This document shows positions 17,990 to 29,537 of a stretch of 64,000 nucleotides of DNA, one piece after another. Made by a program: the position numbers and the translations under genes. A model generated the notes under the pieces. The model had not been told where the DNA came from. It ran no database searches and was given only the letters and a program-made list of their open reading frames with translations. How positions within the stretch are numbered: position 1 is the first letter of the stretch; each line of letters opens with the position of its first letter. The DNA is from Candidatus Poribacteria bacterium (lineage in GTDB: Bacteria > Poribacteria > WGA-4E > WGA-3G): assembly GCA_965205025.1 (NCBI GenBank), contig CBDBFU010000005.1:1-64000 (forward strand). The letters are read 5' to 3'.

Positions 17990-18520
17990 ATGACTGAAGA
18001 GGAATTCCTTGAATTAGTCCGTAAACATCAAGATCAAGTATATCGGCATACGCTATACCTTCTAAAAAACATTGAAGACGCTAAGGATATGACACAAGAA
18101 ACTTTCATGAAGGCATGGCAACATCGCTCAAAATTGAGACAAGATACGGTTCGTTATTGGTTACTAAAATGTGCTCGAAATCTTTGTTTCAATAAAATAA
18201 GAAGACGAAAGTTTCAAGTACATTTATCTGATGAAGAAGATAGTGATTCGTTAGAGATATTATTACAGGAACATTCACATCAGTCAAATCCATCTCCAGA
18301 GGAGAATACTATTAATCTGGAAACAAAACAGTTGGTACATCAGGCTATCGCAGAATTACCTCCAGATATACGATCAATAGTAATTATGCGGGAATTAGAG
18401 GAAATGAGCTACAAAGAAATTGCAAAGGTTGTAAAACAATCCGAAAATACTATTAAATCCACTGTCTTTCGGGCACGGAAGAAATTACGGGAGATATTGA
18501 ACCGTCTAATGGAGATATAA
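17990..18520 (+). CDS. ECF RNA polymerase sigma factor (paralogue of 13528-14055)
   Basis: DAKDMTQETFMKAW, SYKEIAKVV...TIKSTVFRARKKL. Confidence 0.93.
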   Translation: MTEEEFLELVRKHQDQVYRHTLYLLKNIEDAKDMTQETFMKAWQHRSKLRQDTVRYWLLKCARNLCFNKIRRRKFQVHLSDEEDSDSLEILLQEHSHQSNPSPEENTINLETKQLVHQAIAELPPDIRSIVIMRELEEMSYKEIAKVVKQSENTIKSTVFRARKKLREILNRLMEI

Positions 18521-18523
18521 TCA

Positions 18524-19195
18524 ATGCTACAACAACCATACATAAATACATGCTCTGACATCCAAACATACATGGAAGAATATGTTGCAGGAGAATTAGA
18601 TTCTCAAACAGAATCCACAATCAGATCACATCTCACCACATGTGACGCCTGTCAACAAGAATTCCGTATGGCACAGATGATTGATACAGTATTAGATGAT
18701 TTGGAAAAACCGACTTCTCCACCAGAGGTTTTAAGAGAAGTTACAGCTTTTGTCAGGGCAAATCAGAAAAATTATGGTTGGTTACATCGGATTTTAGATT
18801 TCTCACATGTTGCGTCATACTTAAGTTCACCTTTATTACGTATCAGCACATTGATTTTCATTATCGGTATGATGTTAATCGGTATTCACCAATATCGCAG
18901 ATATGTTGTTGTAGAACAAGCAAAAGACGAATTCTATTATGCTATGAGTAAAATGCAGACTGCAGTACAAAAAACAAGTTTAGGAGTAAATGAAAGTTTC
19001 ACATCACTTAACATTGACGATGCCCCAAATCGTGCACTAAAACCAACAATAGAAATCTCATCATCAATTCAAAACACTTTTGATATCCTTCACATTATAA
19101 CAGGTTCAGATAAACCAGAAAAACAAGATTCAATTAGGTCAATAGATAATTCAATAGATCAAAATAAGCAATTAACAGGAGATAATACACAATGA
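18524..19195 (+). CDS. Membrane-anchored zf-HC2 anti-sigma factor
   Basis: HLTTCDAC motif and one TM segment (ISTLIFIIGMMLIGI). Confidence 0.85.
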   Translation: MLQQPYINTCSDIQTYMEEYVAGELDSQTESTIRSHLTTCDACQQEFRMAQMIDTVLDDLEKPTSPPEVLREVTAFVRANQKNYGWLHRILDFSHVASYLSSPLLRISTLIFIIGMMLIGIHQYRRYVVVEQAKDEFYYAMSKMQTAVQKTSLGVNESFTSLNIDDAPNRALKPTIEISSSIQNTFDILHIITGSDKPEKQDSIRSIDNSIDQNKQLTGDNTQ

Positions 19196-19749
19196 AACGT
19201 CTTACACTTACGATCTTATTTGTCACGGTCTGCTTTTTTGGCAGTACTATAGCACAGACCGATGCCATCCGTGGAAAAATAAATATGAAATTACCTAATA
19301 ATCCAGCTCCAACGGTTGAAGTTAACTTAGACCAATCATTTTTCAATCTCTTTATCAAGTTTACACTTAATCTTCCCGAATATGGGGAGTATGCAGAAAT
19401 GATTGATGGGATTTACGTTCATAGTTATGATAAACAGTCATTAGAATTGGACAATATGAAAAGCAATTTCCAAGAAACACTGAAAACCGAAAATTGGGAG
19501 CAGATCGTCAAGGTAAAGGACGAACTTCACGTCAGTATGCTCTTTGCTGAAACACCCGGTGTACTAAACGGTATTTTTGTGTCCTTCACTGATAAACAGA
19601 ACACTACCTTTGTGAATGTTTTTGGTGAAATTGATTTCCAAAAACTTGGTATCCTCTTTGGAAAAATTATGGAAACCAAACCTGATTTCATGAAGAACAT
19701 CAAAATCGATGGTAATTTTGGAATTAATAGTGATAAGGACAAAGATTGA
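19192..19749 (+). CDS. DUF4252-like exported protein
   Basis: Signal peptide; VEVNL...IDGIYVHSY...WEQIVKV...FVNVFGEID pattern; ECF/anti-sigma context. Confidence 0.7.
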   Translation: MKRLTLTILFVTVCFFGSTIAQTDAIRGKINMKLPNNPAPTVEVNLDQSFFNLFIKFTLNLPEYGEYAEMIDGIYVHSYDKQSLELDNMKSNFQETLKTENWEQIVKVKDELHVSMLFAETPGVLNGIFVSFTDKQNTTFVNVFGEIDFQKLGILFGKIMETKPDFMKNIKIDGNFGINSDKDKD

Positions 19750-19813
19750 AAAACACTTCTTCCAGAAAGCAAGGAATTTATTTATACCCATTACATTTAC
19801 AGGAGAAAAGACC

Positions 19814-22309
19814 ATGAAACTGCAAAGAACTCTTTCACTGTTATTTACAGTGTTATGTTTACTAATATGGACTTTACCGATTCAGCATTCATTTGCCCAA
19901 GAAAACAAAGATAAAAACATCAAAAAAGGACTCATCCCTTTTGACTATATGGATGAACTTGAAGCACAAGTTGAGGTTAATCTAACCGATAAACTCATCA
20001 ATCTGGTTACTAAATCCGTGAATTCAAAACCAGAAGTGGTAGAATTAATTAAAATGATTGAAGGCATCTATTTACGTACCTATGGGGAGTACGGTGTCGC
20101 TGAATCAGGAATGATTAAATATTATAGAGATAAACTAAAGGCAAATAAATGGGAAACTCTTGTAAAAATTAATGACCGTGAAAACAAAAGAGATCAAGCC
20201 GAAATAGTTGAAATCAGTTTGTTATATGATGAAGATGTTGCTTATGGTATCTTTGTAATCTTTGCTACTAAAAATCCTGATGAGGTGACTTTTATCAATA
20301 TCATTGGTCGAATTGCACCAGATAGAATTACAGAACTACTTGGAAATCTAAGCAATTTTGGTATGGCAGATATTGATCTGAAAGGAACACTTAAGACAAG
20401 TGTAGAACTTAACCCAAATCGGGGTACAATACAAAGAGAACTACTTGGAGTCAAGACTGAAAAACCACCAGTTATTGATGGTGACTTGGGAGATATGTGC
20501 TGGAAAACTGCCCCAATAGCAGATAAATTCACACATGTAATTACCGAACAAATTGTCAAAGATCAAACTGAAGCAAAACTGGTTTATACAGACAAATCAA
20601 TCTACATTGCATGGTACATCCACGAGTCACAACCAAATAAGACTATTGTTCTCCAACCAAACGATCAGACACCTTTTAAGGATGAGGATTCAGTCTGTTT
20701 TACTATTGACCCCTTCCATACACACAAATCCACACAACGAACACTGTTTATGGTAAACCGAAATGGAAACAGGAATCTTCAGTTTGGTACACGCCGGACA
20801 AAAGATGACGAAAGAATGAAGCAATGGAATGTGGCGATTAAGTTTGTCAAAGATGGATGGATTGTTGAGATGGAAATTCCATGGAAAATTCTGGATTATC
20901 CTGAAAGCTCTGAACCAATCCTCATGGGGATCAACTTTGAAAGAAAACACAAAAGAACGGGGGAACATTCTTGGTGGTCAAACATTGGGGATGAAAAGAA
21001 TTACCAACAAGATGGTAACTGGAAACAAATTATACCACCATCCAAATTCTCATTAATGCAGGGGATGTTAGATGCATTAGAAAAAGACAAACACAGTGTC
21101 CCTCTTGTTCTCGCTAAAGAGAAGAATGTATCAAAAACAAACAGAGATTTCCTCCGTTTTGTTAATACCAGCGGATTAAATCCTGTAGATGGGATTCGAC
21201 TCGGTGGTGGATTTGAAATTGGTTCACGTTGGAATTCTGATCCATACTTCTTTGATCGTTCTGGTGAAACTATACACCGGAATGTAAATATAGGTACAAT
21301 CCCAATTGATATAAATGATGATTTCAGTATGAGATCCCAATTAGGACTTAAACCTTTCCTATATGGTAGTATGAGTTTTGCTACTCGAGCAGAAACTCCT
21401 AATTATCGGCTTGGTGGTGGTATCACATTAGGTAAGAAAGCAAATATAACATATAGTACTCAAATTCATAGGTTAACATCTGCAAGGGACAGAGACCTTC
21501 TGTTAAGCGGAAGTGAGCAATTCTTAAGAGCATTCATTGATGCAGACTTTCATGATTATTATACCAGACAAGGAGGAGTGATGGCACTTCAATGGCAGAA
21601 CACTACATTGAAGCATACTCTTGGACTAACACTACTCTTAGAAGAACATGAAAGCATCTTCAGCGATAGCTCTTCTTACTTCAGAATCGGGACTTCAAGT
21701 TATCACTTAGATACAAGTACCAGAGCAAATTCTCTAATATATGATGGCAATATGCACAGCCTATCCTTAAAATACGATTTTGATACACGGGAAGATACTA
21801 AAGTTAGATACGACTTGAGAAACCGAGCGAACAATAACGAGTGGTATAACACATTTCTTATTGAACACTCAAATTCTGAAATCGGTTCTACCTATGATTT
21901 TACACGTTTTATTATACATCTTCGGAATTACCATCCTATCGGTGAAAACCGGATTGATACCCGACTGAAAATCGGTATTGCTGCTACAGAATTTTCGTTG
22001 CCTTTCCAACGTCAATTTGTGCTTGGTGGAACTGGGACATTACGCGGATATTCACTCTATGAATTTGTAGGCAACCACGGATTTCTTTTTAATCTGGAGT
22101 ATTTGCATAGTTTAAAAGGCGGATTATTCATAGTGCCTTTTGTAGACATAGGGCAAGTGTGGGAGAATTTGGAAGACATAAAAAATGTTCATCCAATGGT
22201 TAACCTCGGAATCGGTTTCCAATGGCATATCTTTAGATTGAATTTCGCAAGATCCCTTGAAAAAGAACGTGGATACCAAGCCAACTTTAAATGGTCCCGC
22301 ACATTCTAA
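19814..22309 (+). CDS. Exported multidomain protein: DUF4252-like + CBM9-like + Omp85/BamA-type surface-antigen barrel
   Basis: Signal peptide after AGGAG RBS; DUF4252-like segment; PPVIDGDLGD..W and WIVEMEIPW (CBM9-like); FVLGGTGTLRGY, PFVDIGQVW and terminal Phe (Omp85-like). Confidence 0.7.
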   Translation: MKLQRTLSLLFTVLCLLIWTLPIQHSFAQENKDKNIKKGLIPFDYMDELEAQVEVNLTDKLINLVTKSVNSKPEVVELIKMIEGIYLRTYGEYGVAESGMIKYYRDKLKANKWETLVKINDRENKRDQAEIVEISLLYDEDVAYGIFVIFATKNPDEVTFINIIGRIAPDRITELLGNLSNFGMADIDLKGTLKTSVELNPNRGTIQRELLGVKTEKPPVIDGDLGDMCWKTAPIADKFTHVITEQIVKDQTEAKLVYTDKSIYIAWYIHESQPNKTIVLQPNDQTPFKDEDSVCFTIDPFHTHKSTQRTLFMVNRNGNRNLQFGTRRTKDDERMKQWNVAIKFVKDGWIVEMEIPWKILDYPESSEPILMGINFERKHKRTGEHSWWSNIGDEKNYQQDGNWKQIIPPSKFSLMQGMLDALEKDKHSVPLVLAKEKNVSKTNRDFLRFVNTSGLNPVDGIRLGGGFEIGSRWNSDPYFFDRSGETIHRNVNIGTIPIDINDDFSMRSQLGLKPFLYGSMSFATRAETPNYRLGGGITLGKKANITYSTQIHRLTSARDRDLLLSGSEQFLRAFIDADFHDYYTRQGGVMALQWQNTTLKHTLGLTLLLEEHESIFSDSSSYFRIGTSSYHLDTSTRANSLIYDGNMHSLSLKYDFDTREDTKVRYDLRNRANNNEWYNTFLIEHSNSEIGSTYDFTRFIIHLRNYHPIGENRIDTRLKIGIAATEFSLPFQRQFVLGGTGTLRGYSLYEFVGNHGFLFNLEYLHSLKGGLFIVPFVDIGQVWENLEDIKNVHPMVNLGIGFQWHIFRLNFARSLEKERGYQANFKWSRTF

Positions 22310-23920: not shown

Positions 23921-24083
23921 TAAAGAATTCACACATCAATTTGAAACACTCCAATCAAAACTAAACGAACCCTATGATTTAGCAGTTCGGTATTATCATT
24001 AATTTAATCTGATAATTTCATTTTTTTAAACCATCATCTACTTAATCCCTCTCTTAAGCTTAAATCTAATAGGAAATCTATAT

Positions 24084-25289
24084 ATGCATTCCGATTTAGA
24101 AGCGAACACAGAACTAACAGATGAAGAACTCATACGACTTACACAAGACGGGGATGAGTCAGCATTAAAAGAACTAATGTCACGCTTTAGTCCGCATATA
24201 TGGAAAGGGATTCTCGCAAATTCAAGATCACGTTGTGATGCTGAAGAGATACTTATGGATGTTTGGAGGTCTGTTTGGGAAAACATCAAGGGATTACATA
24301 ATCCTGGGAGTCTTAGGGCATGGCTCAGTGTCATTGCTTACAATGCCTGTAAAAGGTACTATAATTCTCGTAAATATTCAAACCATGTCATATTGTGTTC
24401 TGATGTGTTTTTATTAGAAAGAATTAATCAAGACTCCATTACATATTTCAACAAAACAGAACTCCTCCAAGCTATAACTGAAGCAGTACATCAACTACCG
24501 GATAAATTACTACCTATAGCAGAATTATATTATTTGGAACAGTGGAGTATTAAAGAAATCCACAAGGAACTTGGATTAGCAATTGGAACAATCAAGACAA
24601 GATTAAGACAGACACGTGAACTGCTACGGAAAGAGTTCGGTGTCGAACCTAATATAGGGGGAACTATGTTACATAAGCAAGATGAACCTAATCAGATACA
24701 AACAAAAACAAAGGTGATTGGTGTCGGTGCTGCTGGCAGTAATGCAGTCCAACGGATGGAAGAAGTAGGTATGACAAATCTTGAATCCTACGTTGTAAAT
24801 ACTGATCACCAAGTACTTGAAAAGTGCAAATATGGAATACAAATACCAATAGGTGAAAAAACCACTGAAGGACTTGGTTGTAAAGCAAATCCAGAGATTG
24901 GTAAATTGGCTGCAGAAGAGAATATTGAGACTTTGCAAAAAATTGTTGAGAAAACAGAAATAGTATTCATTATTGCAGGGATGGGAGGTGGAACAGGTAC
25001 AGGTGTAGCACCAGTGATTGCCTCTCTATCACAAAAGCAAGGAGCAATCACAGTTGGAGTTGTCACATATCCATTTGATTTTGAAGGAGAATCGTTTCAC
25101 CTACGAGCACAAAAAGGACTTGAAGATTTACGCAAATATACAGATGCAGTTGTTGTAATCCAAAACCAAAGTCTTATCAAGGCTGTGTCTCGTCAAATGA
25201 ATATACGTGAAGCATTCAGTCTCAGTGATAAGGCGATTCTGCATGGTGTAGAATGTTTATCCGGTCTTTACTCCAACATCATGCAGTAA
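24084..25289 (+). CDS. ECF sigma factor fused to a truncated FtsZ GTPase domain
   Basis: Residues ~1-185 show sigma regions 2 and 4 (DAEEILMDVW; SIKEIHKELGLAIGTIKTRL). Residues ~205-401 are FtsZ-like (KVIGVGAAGSNAV, NTD, AGMGGGTGTG, PFDFEG). Confidence 0.9.
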   Translation: MHSDLEANTELTDEELIRLTQDGDESALKELMSRFSPHIWKGILANSRSRCDAEEILMDVWRSVWENIKGLHNPGSLRAWLSVIAYNACKRYYNSRKYSNHVILCSDVFLLERINQDSITYFNKTELLQAITEAVHQLPDKLLPIAELYYLEQWSIKEIHKELGLAIGTIKTRLRQTRELLRKEFGVEPNIGGTMLHKQDEPNQIQTKTKVIGVGAAGSNAVQRMEEVGMTNLESYVVNTDHQVLEKCKYGIQIPIGEKTTEGLGCKANPEIGKLAAEENIETLQKIVEKTEIVFIIAGMGGGTGTGVAPVIASLSQKQGAITVGVVTYPFDFEGESFHLRAQKGLEDLRKYTDAVVVIQNQSLIKAVSRQMNIREAFSLSDKAILHGVECLSGLYSNIMQ

Positions 25290-25317
25290 TAGAAAAAATT
25301 CACTACATTTTGAAAAA

Positions 25318-25391
25318 ATACCATTTCTAATAATTATTGTCTCTTTAATGCATAACAAATGTTGATGGATATTCATTGTTAGAAATGGTAT
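25318..25391. mobile_element. Short MITE-like element, ATACCATTTCT...AGAAATGGTAT family
   Basis: Terminal inverted repeats shared with copies at 34067, 34610, 53524, 58278 and 59382. Confidence 0.7.
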
Positions 25392-25518
25392 GATATCCTT
25401 ATTTTCAATTTGCTAAGCCTGAAATGTCAAGTTTCACAACAAATACCCCGGAATTTTTAGCTGATTGATACTTTTTGAAATAGACTATATATAAACATAG
25501 AGGTGAATCACTTTTTAA

Positions 25519-27818: not shown

Positions 27819-29537
27819 GTGGATAGAGAGAATGATGGTAAATTGATTAAGAAATTCTTATCAGGCGATGATTCTGCCTTTCAGATCTTGGTTGAAAAAT
27901 ATCAAGAAAGCATTCATACACTTGCTTGGCGGAAGATCCAAGATTATCACTATGCTGAAGAAATTATGCAAGACACTTTCCTGAGGGTATATAAAAAACT
28001 ACCATCACTTAAGAATCATAATCAATTTGCTGGGTGGGTTCATGTAATTGCAAATAGACTTTGTACAGACTGGGTACGAAAGTATAAACCAGAAATACAA
28101 TCCTTAGATGTCACAGATAAGGATGAAATTGAGATATCTTCCTTTAAACACCACATGACTCAACAACGTGAAATAGAGAGAACTGAATATTGTCAAAAAC
28201 TTGTAAATAAACTATTAGAAAAATTACCAGAAAAGGAACGACATGTATTAACCCTCTATTATCTCGATGACATGTCAACAAAAGAGATCAGTGAAACTAT
28301 AGGGGTATCAGTAAATACCATTACAAGCCGTCTTCAACGCGCACGAAAACGTCTACAAACAGATCAAGAAATCATCAATCAGGAATTCTTAGATTATTTC
28401 CCATTATCAGAAAAACTAAAGGAGAATATTATGAGTCAATTAGACCTAATTCGAAGCAAATTCGATTCATACATGGAACAGGTAAGAACTAATCCTACAT
28501 CAAGAGAGGAACTTCTAACAGAAACATTCAAAGAAATTGAGGATGCACTTAAGGGAGACATCACTCCTGAACTGGTACATCTTGTCGTTGATGATATATA
28601 CCCACATATGGGAAAACAAGGAATAGAAAAACGACTCTCACTTCTACAAGAGTTTTTGGATGACGCACCAGATAATAAAGAACGTTTTTGGGCACATCAA
28701 GAGTTAGCCTCAAGCCTCGCGTTTCTTGGGAGACACCGAGAATCAGTTGAAGAACAATTACAACTTTATCAATGGGCATGCAAAAACGACATTACAGATA
28801 AGGATGTATTACATATTTTCTGCTCTAATCTCGAGAATCCTGGTGCTTGGTCTGCAGAAGATCGAATTGATGAATGGATTCAATTATATAATGAGGCTTC
28901 GGAACGTTTAGAAAAACCTGAAGTAAGTTATTTTGACCGCTGCGAATTTCTACAAATCGGGGCAGAAGTGCTACGAGCTAATGGCAAATCTGATGAGGCA
29001 TTAATTGAACTTGAAAAGTTGGAAAAAACCAATACTAAACAGGATTGGAGACACTATTTCCGATTCTGGTTAATTGTGAAAACTAATCGATTACTAATCT
29101 ATAATAGACGAAATGAGTCGGAACGTTTTGATGAAATCATAACTGAACTCAAAGACTATATGGAAGGTGAGAATAAGAAATATGATGCGGGTCAACCAGT
29201 AAATATTGGTGATCTTAAATGGCTTTCTCACGACATTGGTTGTTGTCTGGTGTGGATAAATAAGTACAGTATAGCAAGAAGTTTTCTCCAGGTCGCTTGT
29301 GATTTGGGTGGTGAGAATCACTATGGACACTACCAGTTGGCAGTAAGTATTTGGGCATCAGATAAGAACCGTGAGAAGACTCTACACCACTTGAAGATTG
29401 CAGAGAACGACTACGCTGTAGCTTCCTATAATTTTCGAGATAGTTACTACTCATCTTTCGTTAATACACCCGAATTTTCGGATGTTAAGGATGATCCAGA
29501 GTTTCTGAAGGCACTGGGGCAGAAGCCAGTCGATTAG
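27819..29537 (+). CDS. ECF sigma factor with ~370 aa helical (TPR-like) C-terminal extension
   Basis: AEEIMQDTF, STKEISETIGVSVNTITSRLQRARKRL; helical C-terminus ending PEFSDVKDDPEF; AGGAGG RBS with GTG start. Confidence 0.88.
   Translation: MDRENDGKLIKKFLSGDDSAFQILVEKYQESIHTLAWRKIQDYHYAEEIMQDTFLRVYKKLPSLKNHNQFAGWVHVIANRLCTDWVRKYKPEIQSLDVTDKDEIEISSFKHHMTQQREIERTEYCQKLVNKLLEKLPEKERHVLTLYYLDDMSTKEISETIGVSVNTITSRLQRARKRLQTDQEIINQEFLDYFPLSEKLKENIMSQLDLIRSKFDSYMEQVRTNPTSREELLTETFKEIEDALKGDITPELVHLVVDDIYPHMGKQGIEKRLSLLQEFLDDAPDNKERFWAHQELASSLAFLGRHRESVEEQLQLYQWACKNDITDKDVLHIFCSNLENPGAWSAEDRIDEWIQLYNEASERLEKPEVSYFDRCEFLQIGAEVLRANGKSDEALIELEKLEKTNTKQDWRHYFRFWLIVKTNRLLIYNRRNESERFDEIITELKDYMEGENKKYDAGQPVNIGDLKWLSHDIGCCLVWINKYSIARSFLQVACDLGGENHYGHYQLAVSIWASDKNREKTLHHLKIAENDYAVASYNFRDSYYSSFVNTPEFSDVKDDPEFLKALGQKPVD

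What the first reader, a model, noticed from the sequence alone, without database searches (positions are those of the whole stretch)
24084..25289. ECF sigma factor fused to an FtsZ GTP-binding domain that lacks the catalytic T7 loop
Seen: one uninterrupted ORF joins sigma regions 2 and 4 to an FtsZ N-terminal domain that keeps the tubulin signature GGGTGTG, NTD and PFxFEG. It stops just after the AF...D..L..V..L helix, before the NxDFAD T7 loop and the whole C-terminal domain. Established: the T7 loop completes the GTPase site of the neighbouring subunit and is needed for filament formation. Inference: the domain can bind guanine nucleotide or cap FtsZ filaments but cannot polymerise. That would make it a one-component regulator linking transcription to GTP status or division. 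No dcw genes and no anti-sigma gene are adjacent.
Basis: partly seen in the sequence, partly recalled or inferred. Interest (0 to 1): 0.85.

Follow-up and report, generated by a model that had tools for sequence, protein, structure and literature searches.

The report
Sigma factor fused to half an FtsZ
A group of uncultivated Poribacteria carries a well-conserved gene that joins a transcription sigma factor to the GTP-binding half of the cell-division protein FtsZ, one of several fusions of the same sigma module to division and replication proteins, hinting at an undescribed link between transcription and the cell cycle.

Summary
Window 24084-25289 (+) is one open 401-aa gene: an ECF-type sigma (sigma2, sigma4), a disordered ~20-residue linker, and an FtsZ N-terminal GTPase domain that stops just after helix H7. 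It is not an artefact. At least 120 full-length homologues share the domains and the stop point. Both halves are under purifying selection, dN/dS about 0.14. An independent run's contig bridges the junction. Among 176 Poribacteria genomes the fusion occurs in one family only. It is the truncated sister of longer paralogues: sigma + full FtsZ, with or without a DnaE-type polymerase. The same sigma module is also fused to DnaE alone (in this genome), the beta-clamp, and WD40 propellers. All carry one promoter-like motif. Best reading: an auto-regulated one-component ECF sigma whose FtsZ-derived extension senses GTP and/or docks on housekeeping FtsZ. Binding to FtsZ has only weak in-silico support. 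No publication was found. New variant of a known kind; interest high.

The parts
24021..24057 (+). Promoter-like motif: T-run, AAACC (-35-like), 16-18 nt, CTCTCTTAA (-10-like)
   Evidence: Conserved upstream of the orthologues in 14 distinct genomes, while sequence further upstream is unrelated. The same motif lies 59-63 nt before the ATG of all 5 subfamily sigma genes of G000. It also precedes the long/mid paralogues in 5 of 5 other genomes. That it acts as a promoter is inferred.
24058..24083 (+). Conserved leader (GCTTAAATCTAAT..GGAAA) with a GGA-type ribosome-binding site
   Evidence: Alignment by eye of the upstream sequences printed; gene-start rows.
24084..25289 (+). Coding sequence of the sigma-FtsZ(N) fusion, 401 aa (P0001), stop codon included
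24192..24374 (+). Sigma region 2 (residues 37-97)
   Evidence: Pfam PF04542. AF2 helices with block-mean pLDDT about 78-91. dN/dS 0.146 for residues 8-190.
24468..24632 (+). Sigma region 4 (residues 129-183), helix-turn-helix
   Evidence: Pfam PF08281 and PF04545. G168 T169 I170 K171 R178 are invariant.
24639..24701 (+). Flexible linker (residues 186-206), the fusion junction
   Evidence: pLDDT below 50 for residues 186-206. dN/dS 0.565 for 191-206. Bridged by X3 contig record 21.
24666..24668 (+). Nearly invariant in-frame ATG (Met195) preceded by a purine-rich Shine-Dalgarno-like run; possible internal start
   Evidence: Seen in 14 of 14 orthologues that matched the search pattern. The sigma-less stand-alone form starts at this Met. 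Use as a start site in the fusion is a hypothesis.
24702..25199 (+). FtsZ N-terminal GTPase (Rossmann-type) domain with loops T1-T6 (residues 207-372)
   Evidence: Pfam PF00091. Gapless match to PDB 4m8i residues 20-207, E 6.9e-50. Foldseek rmsd about 1-2 A to FtsZ structures. dN/dS 0.141.
25203..25283 (+). Helix H7 (residues 374-400), last FtsZ element before the stop
   Evidence: AF2 helix 374-400 with block-mean pLDDT about 60 falling to about 40 at its end. All 120 homologues end 5-12 residues after the EAFxLSD...SISEFH motif, except two with a short unrelated tail.

Best explanation
This is a genuine, selected gene of one family-level clade of Candidatus Poribacteria. It encodes a group-specific ECF-type sigma factor whose C-terminal extension is the N-terminal, nucleotide-binding half of a duplicated FtsZ.

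Origin (shown by trees). A housekeeping FtsZ of this clade was duplicated and fused behind the sigma module. One copy stayed full-length, often with a DnaE-type polymerase behind it. The other was cut once, right after helix H7, giving the short form found here.

Mechanism (inferred). It works as a 'one-component' ECF sigma.
1. Sigma2 and sigma4 direct RNA polymerase to a group-specific promoter (T-run, AAACC, 16-18 nt, CTCTNTA). This motif stands in front of every gene of the subfamily, so the genes auto- and cross-activate.
2. The FtsZ-N extension hangs on a flexible ~20-residue linker. It keeps the whole nucleotide pocket and the 'top' polymerisation face, but has no T7 loop or C-domain.
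3. It can therefore bind GTP and accept the T7 face of a real FtsZ, as a terminal subunit that cannot be extended.
4. That docking, or the bound nucleotide, sets how much sigma is free to bind RNA polymerase. Transcription is thereby coupled to FtsZ assembly state or GTP level.
For: Real and selected:
- At least 120 full-length homologues, 55-87% identical. All 120 carry the Tubulin domain and all but a few both sigma domains; the named ones are Candidatus Poribacteria. All stop just after H7.
- 77 short-form rows in 76 of 176 Poribacteria genomes: 15 of 40 in genus g1, 61 of 65 in g6, none in the other 71.
- Median dN/dS: sigma 0.146 (87 of 91 pairs usable), FtsZ-N 0.141 (83 of 91), linker 0.565.

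Origin:
- The fused FtsZ domains form one clade (99/96) nested inside the family's canonical FtsZ (100/96). The short forms are one clade (100/97), sister to the long/mid forms (92/81).
- The sigma modules form one clade (100/99).

Sigma function:
- TIGR02937 scores above its cut-off, and sigma2/sigma4 motifs are invariant.
- The promoter-like motif is conserved upstream in 14 genomes. It precedes all 5 subfamily genes in G000, at 59-63 nt from the ATG, and the long forms in 5 of 5 other genomes.

Pocket and top face:
- Of 52 columns that are >=90% conserved in 45 canonical FtsZs up to H7, P0001 keeps 47 and the family majority keeps 50.
- The model fits FtsZ structures at about 1-2 A rmsd.

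Docking on FtsZ:
- Complex prediction gave weak support: score 0.37, best of 3 controls 0.05. The mark was reached by 58 of 80 solved complexes and 2 of 110 mismatched pairs, but at 0.60 or under by only 7 of those 80 and by both mismatches that passed.
- The runs agree in >=88% of contacts and the partner's pLDDT is >=83. My own alignments and riding GTP make the counts rough.
- Solved FtsZ filaments exist, so this pass may only reflect likeness.

Dependence on sigma:
- Sigma-less copies show dN/dS 0.24-0.38, a changed T3 loop, and 1 of 3 is broken.

Background:
- ECF sigmas with C-terminal extensions usually lack anti-sigma factors and are regulated through the extension (passages of PMC7826278 and PMC8999054).
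Against: - Nothing was measured: no GTP binding, no FtsZ binding, no transcription, no expression data.
- AF2 predicts no fixed packing between the sigma and FtsZ-N parts (pTM 0.51, linker pLDDT below 50). An intramolecular switch is therefore not supported.
- The Pfam sigma scores are only just above their cut-offs, so the module is divergent and might not act as a sigma.
- No regulon beyond the sigma genes was found: the loose motif gives 12 genome hits against 1-9 for four control patterns. The promoter could equally be read by another sigma.
- The window's own protein replaces two glycines that are invariant in 45 of 45 canonical FtsZs: G23A in T1 and G74K in T3. It lies on a long branch (0.38).
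- The complex pass is weak and could come from memory of solved filaments.
- The neighbourhood consists of envelope and exported-protein genes, with nothing tied to division.
Confidence: 0.45

Rival explanations
1. Pure nucleotide sensor. The FtsZ-N extension only binds GTP or GDP and changes the conformation of the sigma, as small-ligand or metal-binding extensions do in ECF41 and ECF238. Housekeeping FtsZ plays no part.
For: All nucleotide-binding loops are conserved. The review PMC8999054 (passages) describes ligand-driven conformational activation of ECFs with extensions. The complex pass with FtsZ is only weak.
Against: Conservation goes beyond the pocket: 50 of 52 canonical columns, H7 included. 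The paralogues carry whole protein-interaction or machine subunits (full FtsZ, DnaE, DnaN, WD40) rather than ligand pockets. No inter-domain packing is predicted.
Confidence: 0.15
2. Localised FtsZ antagonist, with information flowing the other way. The FtsZ-N part caps FtsZ filaments, and the sigma module merely places this cap on RNA polymerase or the nucleoid, or times its synthesis. The result would be a nucleoid-occlusion-like or stress-induced division brake.
For: The top face is intact and T7 is absent. There is a weak complex pass, 0.37 against 0.05, with the caveats given above. An isolated FtsZ-N gene exists in 3 genomes. A conserved internal SD+ATG could yield free FtsZ-N. End-capping regulators of FtsZ are known, for example MipZ (PMC9897490, title and abstract in the listings).
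Against: The sigma module is as strongly constrained as the FtsZ part and has its own promoter logic. The sigma-less copies look relaxed, and 1 of 3 is broken. The same module is fused to non-FtsZ partners.
Confidence: 0.15
3. Decoy or guard sensor. The sigma module is fused to copies of host hubs that phages attack (FtsZ, clamp, polymerase). A phage inhibitor binding the decoy frees the sigma and switches on a response.
For: The fusion partners are paralogues of essential machines, kept alongside the normal copies. A defence protein that senses a phage protein in complex with FtsZ has been published (PMC13423816, abstract). The family is lineage-specific and modular, with repeated gain and loss of partners.
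Against: There is no PADLOC match for P0001, sigma-DnaE, the long form or sigma-DnaN: 0 families each, 4 of the 5 proteins scanned. No effector regulon was found. Neighbouring genes are envelope and transport genes, not defence genes. Strong purifying selection rather than diversifying change.
Confidence: 0.1
4. Sigma mimic. The sigma-like module does not start transcription. It titrates an anti-sigma factor, as PhyR does, with FtsZ-N as the input domain.
For: Pfam sigma scores are barely above their cut-offs, and no regulon was detected. The PhyR analogy is recalled from memory; its paper appears only as a cited title in the reference list seen.
Against: TIGR02937 scores above its cut-off. 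The region 4 helix-turn-helix residues are invariant. A group-specific promoter-like motif precedes all members. No partner anti-sigma gene is conserved nearby.
Confidence: 0.08
5. Artefact, pseudogene or split gene: an assembly chimera, a decaying FtsZ duplicate, or an N-half that pairs with a separately encoded C-half.
For: Only one FtsZ half is present, and TIGR00065 scores below its cut-off.
Against: There are 120 homologues with the same end and dN/dS is 0.14. Contigs of an independent run bridge the junction. FtsZ_C occurs only once in G000, in the canonical gene.
Confidence: 0.02

Closest known systems
ECF sigma factors with fused C-terminal regulatory extensions (ECF41 SnoaL-like, ECF42 TPR, ECF57 WD40-like, ECF238 Cys-rich)
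   Same: A sigma2-sigma4 core followed by an extension of more than 50 residues, with no cognate anti-sigma gene alongside. The extension is expected to control sigma activity through a ligand or a partner protein (passages of PMC7826278 and PMC8999054). Close paralogues here carry WD40 propellers.
   Different: The extension is half of a cytoskeletal GTPase. Sister genes carry a whole FtsZ, a DnaE-type polymerase or a beta-clamp. None of these appears among the extension types named in the main texts read; supplements could not be seen. No contact between extension and core is predicted.
Housekeeping FtsZ, and FtsZ variants with a disabled T7 (bottom) face
   Same: The N-terminal fold, loops T1-T6 and helix H7 are kept. 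It derives from this clade's own FtsZ. By my recollection of the FtsZ literature, which no call checked, a subunit with a working top face and no bottom face should act as a chain terminator.
   Different: There is no T7 loop, no C-terminal domain, no C-terminal tail and no dcw context. TIGR00065 scores below its cut-off. It is fused to a sigma factor.
PhyR (sigma-like domain fused to a receiver domain; sigma-factor mimicry)
   Same: An ECF-like domain fused to a C-terminal input domain in one polypeptide (recalled; cited title seen).
   Different: There is no receiver domain. The sigma module passes the ECF model cut-off and has a promoter-like motif in front of its own genes.
CapRel sensing of phage Gp0.4 bound to FtsZ
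   Same: FtsZ serves as the monitored hub in a signalling event (abstract of PMC13423816).
   Different: That system is a toxin-antitoxin that reads the real FtsZ. Here a truncated FtsZ copy is built into a sigma factor, and no defence link is shown.

Membership tests
ECF (group 4) sigma-70 family | Sigma region 2 and region 4 present, scoring above the family model's cut-off | tested here: met
   TIGR02937 68.2 bits against a cut-off of 42.9. PF04542 27.8 against 24; PF08281 28.2 against 25.7.
ECF (group 4) sigma-70 family | Binds core RNA polymerase and starts transcription at a specific -35/-10 promoter | not testable with these tools
   Indirect only: a shared promoter-like motif precedes all 5 subfamily genes in G000, and is conserved in front of the short-form gene in 13 further genomes and the long/mid paralogues in 5 of 5.
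ECF sigmas with regulatory C-terminal extension | Extension longer than 50 residues and no cognate anti-sigma gene next to it | tested here: met
   The extension is about 215 residues (186-401). Flanking genes are DUF5694 and a CBM9/DUF5916 protein. The zf-HC2 protein 5 kb upstream sits behind another sigma.
ECF sigmas with regulatory C-terminal extension | Extension contacts the sigma core and controls its activity | tested here: inconclusive
   AF2 pTM 0.51 with a disordered linker; no confident packing. No experiment.
ECF57 (WD40-like extension) | Two conserved cysteines thought to link sigma2 and sigma4 (PMC8999054 passage) | tested here: not met
   Only one invariant Cys (C89) in the sigma part of 34 aligned members. 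Group HMMs were not available, so true group assignment was not tested.
FtsZ (TIGR00065 equivalog) | Full-length match above the curated cut-off | tested here: not met
   219.1 bits against 295.2; model positions 14-205 of 353 only.
FtsZ (TIGR00065 equivalog) | T7 loop (N-x-D-F-x-D) and FtsZ_C domain | tested here: not met
   The columns N210, D212, F213, D215 and all C-domain columns are gaps in 34 of 34 members. There is no PF12327 hit.
Tubulin/FtsZ GTPase domain (PF00091) | Rossmann-type GTPase domain with the G-G-G-T-G-(T/S/A)-G signature and loops T1-T6 | tested here: met
   138.1 bits. P0001 keeps 47, and the family majority 50, of 52 conserved columns. Foldseek matches to FtsZ structures.
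Tubulin/FtsZ GTPase domain (PF00091) | Binds guanine nucleotide | not testable with these tools
   Inferred from motif conservation. P0001 itself carries G23A (T1) and G74K (T3).
Known anti-phage defence systems (PADLOC) | Match to a defence-system protein model | tested here: not met
   0 families for P0001, sigma-DnaE, the long form and sigma-DnaN.

The most novel reading that the evidence does not exclude
One Poribacteria lineage has built a small network of sigma factors. Each is fused to a spare copy of a cell-cycle hub: half or whole FtsZ, a DnaE polymerase, or the beta-clamp. WD40 sensors join the same network. All read the same promoter, which stands in front of their own genes. Each fused copy would report the state of its machine (Z-ring, replisome), or attack on it by phage proteins, straight to RNA polymerase. 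That would make a direct, one-polypeptide checkpoint or effector-triggered alarm between division or replication and transcription. An internal start at Met195 may add a free FtsZ-N product as a second layer.
Probability: 0.2. Interest if true: 0.9.

Novelty: new variant of a known kind. Interest (0 to 1): 0.75.

Why it matters
ECF sigmas with fused sensor domains are a recognised signalling class. The extensions named in the main texts I read are ligand-binding or repeat domains. Here the extension is half of the cell-division GTPase. Its sister genes fuse the same sigma to a whole FtsZ, to a replicative-type polymerase and to the sliding clamp.

If the extension reads FtsZ or GTP, this would be a direct physical link from the division or replication machinery to promoter choice, in a single protein. 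It also supplies a natural, selected 'top-face-only' FtsZ, which is useful for studying filament polarity and capping.

The host is uncultivated. The protein is small, though, and its promoter is defined, so binding, GTPase and in vitro transcription tests are feasible.

Tried and rejected
- Split gene: FtsZ_C (PF12327) occurs once in G000, in the canonical ftsZ. Rejected.
- Frameshifted remnant downstream: none in 25290-25518.
- Assembly artefact: rejected.
- Wider regulon: the loose promoter pattern gave 12 hits against 9, 6, 7 and 1 for four control patterns. Only the 5 sigma genes stand out.
- Intramolecular docking: AF2 gave no confident domain packing.
- Expression: no RNA holder was listed among 24 runs. 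This says nothing either way.
- Defence-system membership: no PADLOC match for 4 of the 5 proteins. The WD40 paralogue hit one repeat model weakly.
- P0145, a 456-aa sigma + tubulin protein with a different, generic ECF sigma. It groups with another canonical FtsZ (98/94) and breaks off at T7 into an unrelated tail. It is a single sequence on a 2,078-nt contig, so I kept it only as a lead for an independent fusion.
- The high-depth 33-nt stretch at 25318-25350 occurs once in the window. Not followed further.
- Rows dropped: locus L060 did not match my extraction pattern; L060, L070 and L071 did not match.
- Literature: searches, and term look-ups in three ECF papers, found no description of a sigma-FtsZ fusion. 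Supplementary tables of PMC7826278, which list domain content per ECF group, could not be seen and may bear on the novelty claim.
Full report
**1. The observation**

Window 24084-25289 (+) is a single open frame of 401 codons.
- Pfam places Sigma70_r2 at residues 37-97, Sigma70_r4_2 at 129-180 and the Tubulin/FtsZ GTPase domain at 209-367 (138 bits).
- NCBIfam's ECF superfamily model passes its cut-off (68.2 against 42.9 bits).
- The ftsZ equivalog model reaches only 219 of the required 295 bits, because it matches positions 14-205 of 353 and nothing beyond.
- The protein ends about 20 residues after the EAFSLSD motif of helix H7. The genome's own FtsZ continues at that point with the T7 sequence GEINLDFADV.
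- The next 230 bases are AT-rich and hold no FtsZ remnant.

**2. It is a real, selected gene**

A search of 5.8 billion proteins returned at least 120 full-length homologues of 397-443 aa, 55-87% identical. All 120 carry the Tubulin domain and all but a few both sigma domains. The named ones are Candidatus Poribacteria. All stop within about a dozen residues of H7; two have a short unrelated tail.

Among 14 orthologues the median pairwise dN/dS was (one of 15 loci was dropped because my extraction pattern missed it):

| Part | dN/dS |
|---|---|
| sigma part | 0.146 |
| FtsZ domain | 0.141 |
| H7 and tail | 0.238 |
| linker | 0.565 |

Contigs of two runs, possibly the source sample, cover the whole gene without a difference. 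A ~92%-alike contig from a different study runs from the end of sigma4 into the FtsZ domain. Its only two indels lie 4 nt apart and compensate each other.

**3. Distribution**

A profile of the family was run over 176 Poribacteria genomes from 11 families.
- Matches that cover both halves occur in a single family (f1).
- Short-form rows (open frames of 386-464 aa) number 77 in 76 genomes: 15 of 40 in the window's genus g1, and 61 of 65 in g6.
- The other ten families (65 genomes) reach only the score expected of their canonical FtsZ.
- An exhaustive profile-free search of 1.84 billion representatives found no further full-length fusion lineage. The one exception is a doubtful 456-aa singleton, P0145.

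**4.

Many f1 genomes hold a second, longer paralogue.
- In G078 it has 1,435 aa: the same sigma module, a complete FtsZ (Tubulin + FtsZ_C, with a T7 sequence GEISLDFDDIQ), then a DnaE-type polymerase with PHP, DNA_pol3_alpha, finger and HHH_6 domains.
- Forms of about 550-600 aa are sigma + whole FtsZ.
- Each genome examined also has a normal dnaE and a normal ftsZ. In G000 the normal ftsZ lies beside an ORF that looks like ftsA by eye; I did not scan it.
- In the window's own genome the second polymerase is a 1,104-aa sigma-DnaE without FtsZ.
- Relatives of the sigma module at about 50% identity are fused to beta-clamp domains (P0133; a cluster member is annotated by its source as DNA polymerase III subunit beta), to a PHP domain, and to WD40 propellers.
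- G000 has 66 ECF-type matches in all. Only four are close paralogues (46-49% identity): the sigma-DnaE and three proteins of about 900 aa. Two of those three were scanned and are sigma-WD40.

**5. Order of events**

In a tree of the FtsZ N-domain (42 rows, 193 columns):
- all fused copies form one clade (99/96), nested within the canonical FtsZ of family f1 (100/96);
- the short forms, plus a sigma-less 212-aa derivative, form one clade (100/97), sister to the long/mid forms (92/81).

In the sigma-module tree (41 rows, 183 columns):
- the subfamily is one clade on a long stem (100/99);
- the short forms are monophyletic (98/95);
- the sigma-DnaE forms nest within the sigma-FtsZ-DnaE forms (for example 95/92 for G000's copy), so FtsZ was lost from those secondarily.

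The C-domain of the long forms is FtsZ-derived and contiguous. The common ancestor therefore carried a whole FtsZ, and the short form arose by one truncation after H7. This last step is inference.

**6. What the parts can still do**

The FtsZ half aligns without a gap to staphylococcal FtsZ (4m8i residues 20-207, E 6.9e-50). Its AF2 model superposes on many FtsZ structures at about 1-2 A.

Fifty-two columns are at least 90% conserved in 45 canonical FtsZs up to the end of H7.
- The family majority keeps 50 and the window's protein keeps 47.
- The window protein's losses are the start Met, G23A (loop T1), G74K (loop T3) and two Leu-to-Ile changes.
- The nucleotide pocket and the surface that receives a neighbour's T7 loop are thus kept in the family.
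- They are somewhat altered in the window's fast-evolving sub-clade (branch 0.38).

The AF2 model gives confident sigma2, sigma4 and FtsZ-N domains, a linker with pLDDT below 50 (residues 186-206) and pTM 0.51. No fixed packing between the halves is predicted.

The verdict was weak support:
- Score 0.37; best of 3 controls 0.05.
- The mark was reached by 58 of 80 solved complexes and 2 of 110 mismatches, but at 0.60 or under by only 7 of those 80 and by both mismatches that passed.
- Runs agree in at least 88% of contacts; partner pLDDT is at least 83.
- Counts are rough because my own alignments and a ligand were used.
- FtsZ filaments are solved, so the pass may show likeness only.

**7. A shared promoter**

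The ~70 bases before the start codon are conserved in all 14 genomes examined: T-run, AAACC, 16-18 nt, CTCTTTAGGTTAAATC..., ATG. Sequence further upstream is unrelated between genomes.
- The same motif lies 59-63 nt before the ATG of all five subfamily genes of G000.
- It also precedes the long/mid forms in 5 of 5 other genomes.
- Genome-wide, a loose version gives 12 hits against 1-9 for four control patterns, so no further targets can be claimed.

From memory, a group-specific promoter in front of its own gene, with an AAC-containing -35 element, is typical of auto-regulated ECF sigmas.

**8. Neighbourhood**

Across nine loci the gene sits in a variable island of ECF sigmas of about 570 aa, CBM9/DUF5916 proteins, DUF5694, S9 peptidases and ABC transporters. 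In 8 of 10 copies a CBM9/DUF5916 or S9 peptidase gene follows downstream on the same strand. Nothing there is division-related.

**9. Sigma-less copies**

Three Poribacteria genomes carry FtsZ-N alone in the same island.
- The sigma part is replaced by about 500 nt of GC-rich repeats.
- The gene starts at the linker Met.
- dN/dS is 0.24-0.38, the T3 loop is changed, and 1 of the 3 copies is interrupted.

This suggests, weakly, that the domain's role depends on the sigma.

That Met (window 24666-24668) is nearly invariant. In 14 of 14 orthologues it follows a purine-rich Shine-Dalgarno-like run, even where the encoded residues differ. An internal start giving free FtsZ-N is possible but unproven. 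The residues there (E, R, G) are purine-rich by their codons anyway.

**10. Reading**

The best-supported account is an auto-regulated, one-component ECF sigma whose extension is a top-face-only FtsZ. It can bind GTP and dock as a non-extendable subunit on the T7 face of housekeeping FtsZ, coupling sigma availability to FtsZ state or GTP (confidence 0.45).

Rivals:
- a pure nucleotide switch (0.15);
- a localised FtsZ cap, with sigma serving as address or timer (0.15);
- a decoy/guard sensor of phage attack (0.10; a published system senses a phage protein in complex with FtsZ, PMC13423816 abstract, but no PADLOC match);
- a PhyR-like mimic (0.08);
- an artefact, pseudogene or split gene (0.02; one search shows no separate C-half).

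**11. Comparison and novelty**

ECF sigmas with C-terminal extensions are well known. Passages of PMC7826278 name 19 such groups, with TPR, SnoaL-like, Cys-rich, DUF1835 and transmembrane extensions. PMC8999054 adds WD40-like ECF57 and three activation modes.

None of the three ECF papers mentions tubulin, a GTPase or Poribacteria in its main text. FtsZ had 0 occurrences in all three in the listing. Six literature searches found no description of the fusion.

I file it as a new variant of a known kind. It works like an ECF with a regulatory extension. It is a member of the ECF family and of the tubulin/FtsZ GTPase-domain family, but it is not an FtsZ.

Noticed in passing
L015:3097-7404 (G078); also L052 (G142), L019 (G071): Triple fusion of about 1,350-1,500 aa: ECF sigma + complete FtsZ + DnaE-type DNA polymerase III alpha (PHP, alpha, finger, HHH_6). 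It is present in many genomes of the same family, next to tatD and a permease gene. Its T3 loop is degenerate (GSSADGNLE).
   Followed up: partly
L026:3722-7036 (-) = G000 contig C4: The window's own genome encodes a 1,104-aa sigma-DnaE fusion with the same sigma module and promoter motif but no FtsZ. A canonical dnaE lies elsewhere (C2).
   Followed up: partly
P0133 / P0273 (public proteins, Candidatus Poribacteria): The same sigma module fused to domains 2 and 3 of the DNA polymerase III beta-clamp (469 aa). One cluster member is annotated by its source simply as DNA polymerase III subunit beta.
   Followed up: no
G000 genome-wide, e.g. contig C2 at about 344-398 kb: 66 ECF-type sigma matches, most at the start of open frames of 900-1,400 aa and several in tandem arrays. 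This is a very large expansion of sigma factors with long C-terminal extensions.
   Followed up: no
window 24666-24668: A nearly invariant in-frame ATG in the linker, behind a Shine-Dalgarno-like purine run. It may be an internal start giving free FtsZ-N. A Met at the matching place is also seen in the long forms and in sigma-DnaE.
   Followed up: partly
window 25318-25350: A 33-nt stretch with about 190 times the local contig depth in runs X1 and X2 (4,364 against 23), and many short contigs ending there. It occurs once in the window. An inverted copy of its first 12 nt lies about 50 nt downstream. Probably a high-copy repeat or mobile-element end.
   Followed up: partly
L069:3455-3973: In the sigma-less lineage the place of the sigma module is filled by tandem-like GC-rich repeats (units containing CGCCCCGCTGGGGCT).
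   Followed up: no
window 17990-22309: A classical ECF cluster: a 176-aa sigma, a zf-HC2 anti-sigma, a DUF4252 protein, and an 866-aa DUF4252-CBM9-Omp85 protein.
   Followed up: no
window 27819-29537: A 572-aa ECF sigma with an unassigned C-terminal extension of about 390 aa. This family (F0) recurs next to the short fusion in most genomes.
   Followed up: no
L062 (G137:C1), two copies about 4 kb apart: One genome carries two short-form genes (403 and 439 aa) in the same island.
   Followed up: no
P0145 (2,078-nt contig): A 456-aa protein with a different, generic ECF sigma fused to an FtsZ N-domain. The FtsZ part groups with another canonical FtsZ and breaks off at the T7 loop. It may be an independent fusion, or a frameshift or chimera.
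   Followed up: partly
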